From Trichinella spiralis (Eukaryota): DNA of 64,000 nt. Below are positions 18,248-18,999 of this stretch, piece after piece (the stretch's first letter is position 1; every line of letters begins with the position of its first letter). The DNA lies in the NCBI RefSeq assembly GCF_000181795.1, contig NW_003526943.1, forward strand, positions 11,398,007 through 11,462,006, in the 5' to 3' direction. Made by a program: the position numbers and the translations under genes. The notes beneath the pieces were generated by a model. The model was not told the DNA's origin, made no database searches, and saw only the letters and a list, made by a program, of their open reading frames with translations.

Positions 18248-18999
18248 CTATATCATCTTTTTCGACTTCGATTCGACTTCTGAAGCCTTTATACAAAAGC
18301 TTCTACCTTGAAGTGGATTACTAAAATTGAAATATTAAGCACAACGTATAATAAACAAACGGAAAACTTACGTATGAAGTATTTTCAAAAGAGATGTAAA
18401 TTGCTCTGGGGTCAGATATCGCATTTTTGTAAAGAAAACGAGAAGATGAAAAACTTCATCTGAAAGTCCTTCTGATGAGATAATACTATGGTAGGAATGC
18501 AAAAACGTTTCACAGTGACCGTGAAATGCTTCGACATTAACATTCCTTTAAATAATAAATGTTATTTATTTAGAACAAAAAAGACAAATGATTCAAAAAA
18601 AACAAATGTAATATAAAGGTTTAATTATTTCGCATGCAAATTCACAATAAATTTACACATTTTCACACAGTTACATTTTTAGTATTATTTAAATTAATAA
18701 ATGCTTTACATCGTGAAGTCAAGAAAGAAGTGTCAATGAAACGAGATTAATTACAACTTACCCAAGTTCTTCGACGTACTCTGACCAAATTTGCATAATT
18801 CGTTTTGTTTTCTCATGAACAAAACATAACCCGCCGAATCTCTGAAAGTATAGTAATTAAAATGAATACAACATGTAAAACTCTAAATGCTAACTCGAGA
18901 ATTGATAAGTTCATGCCATCTGTTTTCAGCATCATTGCTTTCTTCAGTACAATACCCAAAAGTTTTCTGCCTGTGCATTTCAGAAGGAGAAATACAAAT
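18248..18999 (-). CDS. Divergent VEFS-box (SUZ12/Su(z)12-like) protein, four exons, missed by the ORF track
   Basis: Exons 18999-18895, 18841-18762, 18545-18372, 18320-18248 have canonical GT-AG sites and a stop-free spliced frame: ICISPSEMHRQKTFGYCTEESNDAENRWHELINSR|RFGGLCFVHEKTKRIMQIWSEYVEELG|NVNVEAFHGHCETFLHSYHSIISSEGLSDEVFHLLVFFTKMRYLTPEQFTSLLKILHT|NPLQGRSFCIKASEVESKSKKMI*. It aligns without gaps to the remembered SUZ12 VEFS box from the conserved Trp onward. Confidence 0.7.

What the first reader, a model, noticed from the sequence alone, without database searches (positions are those of the whole stretch)
18248..18999. Hidden SUZ12-like VEFS-box gene with activity-critical residues replaced: possible PRC2 decoy or modulator
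Seen: four small exons with clean GT-AG sites and no stops (136 aa from ATG 18978), absent from the ORF track. It aligns without gaps to human SUZ12 as I recall it: W591, V606, E608, K611, M614, W617, V621, G625, C636, F639, Y643 and the LV of LHLV are identical at the same spacing, and PSEM matches PQEM. Known (recalled): the VEFS box binds EZH2/EED and is needed for H3K27 methylation. F603L, D605V and E610G are reported loss-of-function variants, and the D629-equivalent residue was needed for activity in fly Su(z)12. Here those positions read L, F, T and V. Inference: a stand-alone, structurally intact but non-stimulatory VEFS paralog could compete with SUZ12. Alternatively it is a fast-evolving nematode SUZ12 (compare the highly diverged C. 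elegans MES-3).
Basis: partly seen in the sequence, partly recalled or inferred. Interest (0 to 1): 0.8.

Follow-up and report, generated by a model that had tools for sequence, protein, structure and literature searches.

The report
Truncated SUZ12 offshoot in Trichinella
A spliced, conserved gene of the parasitic worm Trichinella spiralis encodes only the last domain of the Polycomb gene-silencing scaffold SUZ12, with many enzyme-contacting residues changed; it likely acts as an alternative, weakly activating subunit, but whether it dampens the silencing enzyme or is this worm's working subunit is untested.

Summary
The gene is real but not hidden. The four exons translate exactly to GenBank T01_3291 of Trichinella spiralis (136 aa), which UniRef already calls a VEFS-Box protein. 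RNA confirms all three introns. Pfam VEFS-Box scores 24.0 bits (cut-off 23). New here: introns 1 and 2 sit at the ancestral SUZ12 positions, which fixes homology and register independently of protein similarity. Three raw reads carry a spliced-leader-like tail at the acceptor before 18999, so the mRNA likely starts there and the protein is VEFS-only. Coding changes in sister species are mostly silent. The hydrophobic core is kept; D582/S583, F603, D605, E610, N618, D629 and H659 are replaced, and the F566 segment is absent. Relatives were found only in encapsulated Trichinella. The decoy idea is plausible but unproven. No genome was held, so a canonical Trichinella SUZ12 could not be checked, and no binding was tested. 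C. elegans MES-3 works without E610/K611, so those changes alone do not show inactivity. Verdict: a new variant of a known family, of moderate interest.

The parts
19000..19001 (-). AG acceptor used as the likely trans-splice site; the TAG is also an in-frame stop, so the frame does not run upstream
   Evidence: 3 raw reads of X18 leave the genome here with a tail matching Tsp-SL2 and Tsp-SL3 at 11 of 13 letters, the genome at 5 of 13; contigs of X2, X8 and X11 end at 18999-19001
18979..18999 (-). Likely 5' UTR; its 7 codons resemble SUZ12 572-578, a probable coding relic
   Evidence: No ATG before 18978; the 7 codons score above all but 0.02% of 81,644 stop-free 7-mers of the window, 0.2% allowing nine registers
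18895..18978 (-). Coding exon 1, residues 1-28: acidic loop and W21 (human W591)
18842..18894 (-). Intron 1, 53 nt, phase 0 at human-equivalent 598|599, an ancestral SUZ12 position
   Evidence: 18 raw reads, 7 of 7 contig runs; YAG at the same place in 46 of 100 distinct VEFS loci, next best offset 7
18762..18841 (-). Coding exon 2, residues 29-55: altered core motif (L603, F605, T610, S618; V606, K611, M614, W617 kept)
18546..18761 (-). Intron 2, 216 nt, phase 2 in human-equivalent codon 625, an ancestral SUZ12 position
   Evidence: 9 raw reads, 6 of 7 contig runs; GTR at the same place in 44 of 100 distinct VEFS loci
18372..18545 (-). Coding exon 3, residues 55-113: C-terminal VEFS helices
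18321..18371 (-). Intron 3, 51 nt
   Evidence: 9 raw reads, 6 of 7 contig runs
18248..18320 (-). Coding exon 4, residues 113-136 and stop; low-confidence tail outside the VEFS match
18012..18247 (-). 3' UTR (end approximate; one contig runs on to 17736)
   Evidence: read depth and contig ends
19002..19253 (-). Unspliced upstream sequence, likely the outron; holds a weak possible relic exon ending at 19109 that the 2011 gene model (P0001) used
   Evidence: contigs of X1, X3 and X9 cross it unspliced; relic score matched by 18 of 424 control windows, and run X9 has an in-frame stop just upstream of it

Best explanation
T01_3291 is an expressed, constrained VEFS-only gene derived at DNA level from the 3' part of a SUZ12 gene, and it likely works as an alternative PRC2 subunit that would dock its helical core on the worm's EZH2/EED while giving weak or untargeted H3K27 methylation. 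Shown: splicing, VEFS homology, ancestral intron positions, mostly silent divergence, the residue pattern. Inferred: origin as a 5'-truncated duplicate that gained its 5' end by leader trans-splicing onto an internal acceptor; coexistence with a fuller SUZ12; docking through the kept core (W591, K611, F639, I647, L652); reduced stimulation through loss of the SET-contacting parts (F566 segment, D582/S583, F603, D605, E610); loss of RBBP4 and cofactor targeting because the N-terminal lobe is absent.
For: Homology and register. VEFS-only mRNA: leader-like tail in 3 reads, no upstream joint in 8 of 8 runs; no N-terminal SUZ12 piece among 2842 ORFs of the window (weak for short exons). Constraint: run X9 has 5 listed changes in 411 coding bases against 26 in 614 non-coding (p 0.005; 0.050 if the 3 unlisted changes were all coding), 4 silent on 82 sites and 1 replacement on 326. 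Core kept and partner-facing residues lost; roles of F566, the S583 loop and F603/D605/E610 from PMC7000746 and PMC9645763. For a paralog: relatives were named only from encapsulated species (clade label recalled), which is odd for a sole core subunit. PMC9253717 scores a SUZ12 ortholog as present in T. spiralis by standard orthology tools, whereas this protein finds no human SUZ12 chain by phmmer at E 10, so that ortholog is probably another gene.
Against: No canonical Trichinella SUZ12 was seen: no genome, none named among the best 120 of 1241 hits, and PMC11075575 did not recover one. MES-3 lacks E610/K611 in an active complex. N618, F656 and H659 are also changed, which may weaken docking. 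Acidic residues remain at 582, 586 and 588 and W591 is kept, so some stimulation could survive. The trans-splice evidence is 3 reads of one run. The selection test rests on five coding changes.
Confidence: 0.36

Rival explanations
1. It is the working VEFS subunit of a fast-evolving Trichinella PRC2: the sole SUZ12 remnant, or one half of a split SUZ12, with EZH2 co-evolved to fit the changed residues, as with C. elegans MES-3.
For: EZH2-EED-VEFS alone is an active minimal complex (PMC7000746, PMC9645763). MES-3 lacks E610/K611. 75 of 283 species in PMC9018016 have only divergent VEFS-Box proteins. PMC11075575 recovered no T. spiralis SUZ12, and I saw none. The gene is constrained.
Against: No relative was found in non-encapsulated Trichinella or Trichuris in three word-based searches and one full HMMER scan, although sister species are 97-99% identical. 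PMC9253717 reports a conventional ortholog call. The F566 segment that seals the active site is not in the protein.
Confidence: 0.3
2. It is a SUZ12-derived helical domain co-opted for a job outside PRC2 and no longer binds EZH2.
For: Nearly every conserved polar or partner-facing position differs (582, 583, 585, 588, 601, 602, 603, 605, 610, 618, 629, 658, 659) while buried positions are kept. Identity to animal SUZ12 is 10-21% against a median of 61% among those hits. PMC9018016 suggests that non-Su(z)12 VEFS-Box proteins may act in other complexes.
Against: W591 and K611, tied to activity, and F639, I647 and L652, tied to assembly, are kept. No other partner is indicated.
Confidence: 0.26
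3. It is a transcribed, functionless relic of a partial duplication.
For: Strong divergence, borderline Pfam score (4 of 7 orthologous models pass the cut-off), narrow distribution.
Against: Open frame and identical splicing across several species; coding divergence about a third of non-coding, and 4 of 5 coding changes silent; proteins 97-99% identical.
Confidence: 0.08

Closest known systems
SUZ12 / Su(z)12 VEFS domain (Pfam PF09733)
   Same: Profile match over positions 41-121 of 137, same helical layout, two shared intron positions, kept W591, V606, K611, M614, W617, C636, F639, L652, L660.
   Different: No ZnB, WDB, C2 or Zn regions; residues 561-578 are not translated; F603, D605, E610, N618, D629, H659 and the D582/S583 motif are replaced; only 10-21% identity.
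C. elegans MES-3 (diverged SUZ12 ortholog, PMC9253717)
   Same: Nematode SUZ12 derivative whose VEFS lacks E610 and keeps F639, I647, L652.
   Different: MES-3 is long, keeps a C2 domain and RBBP4-binding motifs, has no sequence-detectable VEFS and is proven in PRC2; T01_3291 is VEFS-only, keeps K611 and is untested.
Divergent 'other VEFS-Box proteins' across eukaryotes (PMC9018016)
   Same: Short or divergent VEFS proteins, found alone (75 of 283 species) or beside a Su(z)12 ortholog (28 of 283).
   Different: That survey's supplements held no Trichinella entry, and it reports no targeted loss of activity residues in the passages I read.
EZHIP (natural PRC2 inhibitor of mammals)
   Same: Would share the role of lineage-restricted PRC2 dampener (seen as a search listing; mechanism recalled).
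   Different: EZHIP mimics the H3K27M substrate peptide (recalled); a VEFS decoy would act by displacing a core subunit.

Membership tests
VEFS-Box domain family (PF09733) | Score at or above Pfam's gathering cut-off | tested here: met
   24.0 bits against 23; 4 of 7 Trichinella models pass, the others score 22.3, 22.3 and 17.9
VEFS-Box domain family (PF09733) | Common descent shown independently of protein score (shared intron positions and phases) | tested here: met
   Introns at 598|599 phase 0 and 625 phase 2, matched in 46 and 44 of 100 distinct VEFS loci
VEFS-Box domain family (PF09733) | VEFS helical fold | tested here: inconclusive
   Single-sequence model (pLDDT 61.8): the top 11 Foldseek rows are PRC2 entries but E 0.5-1.5; Z 5.4, rmsd 3.1, 66 aligned; in the wide search SUZ12 ranks 23rd, Z 4.0. 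The model built with a VEFS alignment matches at E 4e-4, TM 0.55, but that test is circular
Canonical SUZ12 / Su(z)12 | N-terminal ZnB, WDB1, C2, Zn and WDB2 regions on the same chain | tested here: not met
   136-aa product; the mRNA appears to start at 18999; no upstream joint in 8 of 8 runs; no Zn_SUZ12 hit
Canonical SUZ12 / Su(z)12 | Conserved activity residues E610, F603, D605, N618 and the D582-S583-E584 loop | tested here: not met
   T, L, F, S and E-E-S respectively. My comparison sets were selected on 603/605/610/618, so their invariance rests on PMC9253717 (E610) and PMC7000746, not on my counts
PRC2 core subunit (works like SUZ12 or MES-3) | Binds EZH2/EED and supports H3K27 methylation | not testable with these tools
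PRC2 decoy / inhibitor | Coexists with a canonical SUZ12 in the same genome | tested here: inconclusive
   No genome; none named in the 120 listed of 1241 hits; PMC9253717 says present, PMC11075575 did not recover it
PRC2 decoy / inhibitor | Binds EZH2/EED and lowers activity in competition with SUZ12 | not testable with these tools
   Needs reconstitution
Pseudogene | Disabling changes or neutral divergence | tested here: not met
   Open frame in all models; 4 of 5 coding changes silent in run X9; coding divergence below non-coding

The most novel reading that the evidence does not exclude
Encapsulated Trichinella evolved a natural dominant-negative PRC2 subunit: a truncated SUZ12 duplicate, turned into a gene by leader trans-splicing onto an internal acceptor, that occupies the VEFS site on EZH2/EED, displaces full-length SUZ12 and so tunes H3K27 methylation by subunit exchange rather than by substrate mimicry.
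Probability: 0.22. Interest if true: 0.75.

Novelty: new variant of a known kind. Interest (0 to 1): 0.42.

Why it matters
If it competes with a canonical SUZ12, it is a natural PRC2 regulator working by subunit exchange, and a clean case of trans-splicing letting a truncated duplicate become a gene. If it is the working subunit, it shows that residues treated as essential from cancer variants can all be replaced, and it adds an intermediate to the MES-3 story. One genome search separates the two readings.

Tried and rejected
Single exons gave no VEFS hit in Pfam. phmmer and a Trichinella-only profile found no SUZ12 chain in the PDB. A full HMMER scan of 1.84 billion representatives with the Trichinella-only profile gave 2 hits: its own cluster and an unrelated-looking metagenome protein with 5 short matches, which I set aside. 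A profile built to rank VEFS proteins by likeness to T01_3291 listed 120 of 1241 hits, with no named nematode other than P0001; the 1121 unlisted hits were not seen. The ESM Atlas gave no hit at 0.9 or more and no VEFS cluster; its Myb/SPK rows are leads only. The wide fold search put ATP synthase delta/OSCP bundles above SUZ12 at Z under 6, which I read as common helical packing. The 2011 model P0001 (extra 5' exon, other 3' end) and the T. nativa model P0005 have no RNA joint in the stretches laid. A cis-spliced source for the 5' tail was not found in the window: 6 matches with two mismatches against 7.9 expected. The run search listed no holder on record as RNA; run X18 came in by species label. 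Supplements of PMC9253717, PMC11075575 (cut when stored), PMC9018016, PMC10638273 and PMC5871936 did not name a T. spiralis SUZ12; their figures could not be seen and may bear on this. Paper searches for Trichinella with SUZ12, PRC2, Polycomb or VEFS listed no study of this gene. Three look-ups of earlier findings were empty. No complex prediction was run, for lack of a Trichinella partner.

Full report
Observation. The minus strand holds four coding exons, 18978-18895, 18841-18762, 18545-18372 and 18320-18248, with GT-AG introns of 53, 216 and 51 nt. The joined 411 bases translate exactly to P0002, which is GenBank KRY39972, T01_3291 of Trichinella spiralis, named 'Polycomb protein VEFS-Box domain-containing protein' in UniRef. 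The gene is therefore annotated, not hidden. Models 97-99% identical exist in T. britovi, T. murrelli, T. nativa and T. nelsoni, and a 126-aa model with another N-terminus in Trichinella T9.

Expression. In raw stranded run X18 (about 18% of it read, 59 reads laid, all of one orientation, fitting a minus-strand RNA) the three joints have 18, 9 and 9 reads. Six of 7 contig runs show all three joints and the seventh shows intron 1; these runs are only guessed to be RNA. No run of 8 shows a joint upstream of 18999; four were laid to 20500 and four to 19400. Three X18 reads leave the genome at 19001 with tails that agree with each other at 0.71. Their consensus plus the genomic AG matches the published leaders Tsp-SL2 and Tsp-SL3 at 11 of 13 letters, Tsp-SL1 at 9, the other six tested at 4-6, and the genome at 5. 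This fits trans-splicing by mixed leaders, on thin counts. The first ATG after the acceptor is 18978, so the protein is likely VEFS-only.

Homology. Pfam VEFS-Box gives 24.0 bits against a cut-off of 23, over profile positions 41-121 of 137. A motif scan of metagenome contigs returned 118 loci (24 of 64 parts scanned). A profile of 23 intronless VEFS domains from them scores P0002 at 32.2 bits, against at most 12.4 for 2000 shuffles and -0.1 reversed; profile-profile probability is 89.7 over 98 columns. That set was selected on a motif sharing four residues with the query, which favours the score. The independent evidence is gene structure. Intron 1 falls at human-equivalent 598|599, phase 0, and intron 2 in codon 625, phase 2. 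Among 100 distinct motif neighbourhoods, 46 have YAG at the first place (next best offset 7) and 44 have GTR at the second (next 29, at a valine codon); intronless contigs are included in the 100. This fixes descent from SUZ12 and the register, and excludes a retrocopy. Fold evidence is weaker. The single-sequence model (pLDDT 61.8) returns PRC2 entries in the top 11 Foldseek rows at E 0.5-1.5, but SUZ12 ranks 23rd in the wide search. The alignment-based model has pLDDT 91-98 over residues 41-110 and matches SUZ12 at E 4e-4, circularly.

Residue pattern. With numbering from the human chain, the protein keeps W591, V606, E608, K611, M614, W617, V621, G625, C636, F639, I647, L652 and L660. It replaces D582, S583, D588, D601/E602, F603, D605, E610, N618, D629, F656, L658 and H659. 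Residues 561-578, including F566, are not translated. PMC7000746 (passages and section 19) gives F566 as part of the pocket stabilising the active site, F603L, D605V and E610G as activity-lowering variants, and N618 as bonded to EZH2. PMC9645763 (passages) gives D582/S583/E584 as contacting the SET domain and W591 as needed. D629 is not invariant: 17 of 23 diverse domains and 72 of 75 animal hits. PMC7754370 (passages) says the fly D593A change, human D629 by the 36-residue offset of W555/W591, had no effect. It writes E546 and D550 where a Drosophila hit has D and E, so I treat it as weak; the primary paper was not held.

Constraint. In run X9, 5 listed differences fall in 411 coding bases and 26 in 614 non-coding bases (Fisher p 0.005; 0.050 if the 3 unlisted differences were all coding). 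Four are silent on 82 sites and one is a replacement on 326. Runs X8 and X10 show three of the same coding changes and are not independent. A pseudogene is unlikely.

Origin. The seven codons between the acceptor and the ATG resemble SUZ12 572-578 better than 99.98% of stop-free 7-mers of the window. A weak candidate for the preceding piece ends at a GT at 19108 (matched by 18 of 424 control windows) and is preceded by a stop in run X9; the 2011 model P0001 used it, the RNA does not. I infer a gene that lost its 5' part and took a leader on an internal acceptor. No N-terminal SUZ12 piece was found among 2842 window ORFs, a test that is weak for short exons. Relatives were named only from species I recall as encapsulated: 3 of 10 and 3 of 22 candidates in word-based searches, and only the gene's own cluster plus one weak hit in the full scan.

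The open question. Whether T. spiralis has a canonical SUZ12 could not be settled. No genome was held, and a targeted search listed 120 of 1241 hits with no such protein named. PMC9253717 (parts 1-3 of 4, supplement searched) marks a SUZ12 ortholog as present in T. spiralis without naming it; since P0002 finds no human SUZ12 by phmmer, that call more likely rests on another gene. PMC11075575 (passages, supplements searched) recovered neither the T. spiralis nor the Brugia protein. I put a second SUZ12 at about 70%, by inference.

Mechanism. Best reading (0.36): a truncated paralog that would dock by its kept helical core and give weak or untargeted activity. Rivals: the working VEFS of a diverged or split PRC2 (0.30), supported by MES-3 lacking E610/K611 and by the activity of minimal EZH2-EED-VEFS; a domain co-opted outside PRC2 (0.26), supported by the breadth of surface change; a relic (0.08). 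Binding and activity are untested in every case.

Novelty. It belongs to the VEFS-Box family but is not a canonical SUZ12. Divergent VEFS-Box proteins are common: PMC9018016 (passages) finds them alone in 75 and beside Su(z)12 in 28 of 283 species. What is new is the combination of ancestral introns, a trans-spliced truncation, a narrow range and targeted loss of enzyme-facing residues. Five paper searches listed no study of this gene; the library lacks most subscription papers. Other papers were seen as passages only: PMC7668243, PMC7986045 (plus supplement rows), PMC10638273, PMC8788455, PMC5871936, PMC8864842.

Noticed in passing
window 13900-16270, minus strand: Multi-exon gene read as V-ATPase subunit B, about 1.7 kb downstream on the same strand; one exon matches ATP-synt_ab at 28.2 bits, cut-off 29.5. 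A useful synteny anchor.
   Followed up: partly
window 20800-22840, plus strand: Divergently oriented gene with a weak CAP match and a DUF5648 domain (46.7 bits); hydrophobic N-terminus by eye, possibly secreted.
   Followed up: partly
window 24000-39300, minus strand: Large voltage-gated channel gene (Ion_trans 79.5 bits on one exon); the exon text suggests a calcium channel (recalled likeness).
   Followed up: no
window 17500-17751: Contigs of runs X1, X2 and X3 cover this stretch between the VEFS gene and the V-ATPase gene and run past the laid edge; the raw run has no depth here. Unexplained transcript or long UTR.
   Followed up: no
window 58716-59030, minus strand: Mitochondrial carrier exon (Mito_carr 33.2 bits).
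   Followed up: no
window 2010-2942 minus, 9015-10151 plus, 11526-12503 plus: Long open exons (311, 379, 326 aa) with no Pfam match at E 0.01.
   Followed up: partly
L008, L029, L060, L076, L086, L106, L113, L118: These VEFS loci appear by eye to have a further acceptor inside the codon for R563; the Trichinella acceptor lies at 571|572 instead, so it is not an ancestral one.
   Followed up: partly
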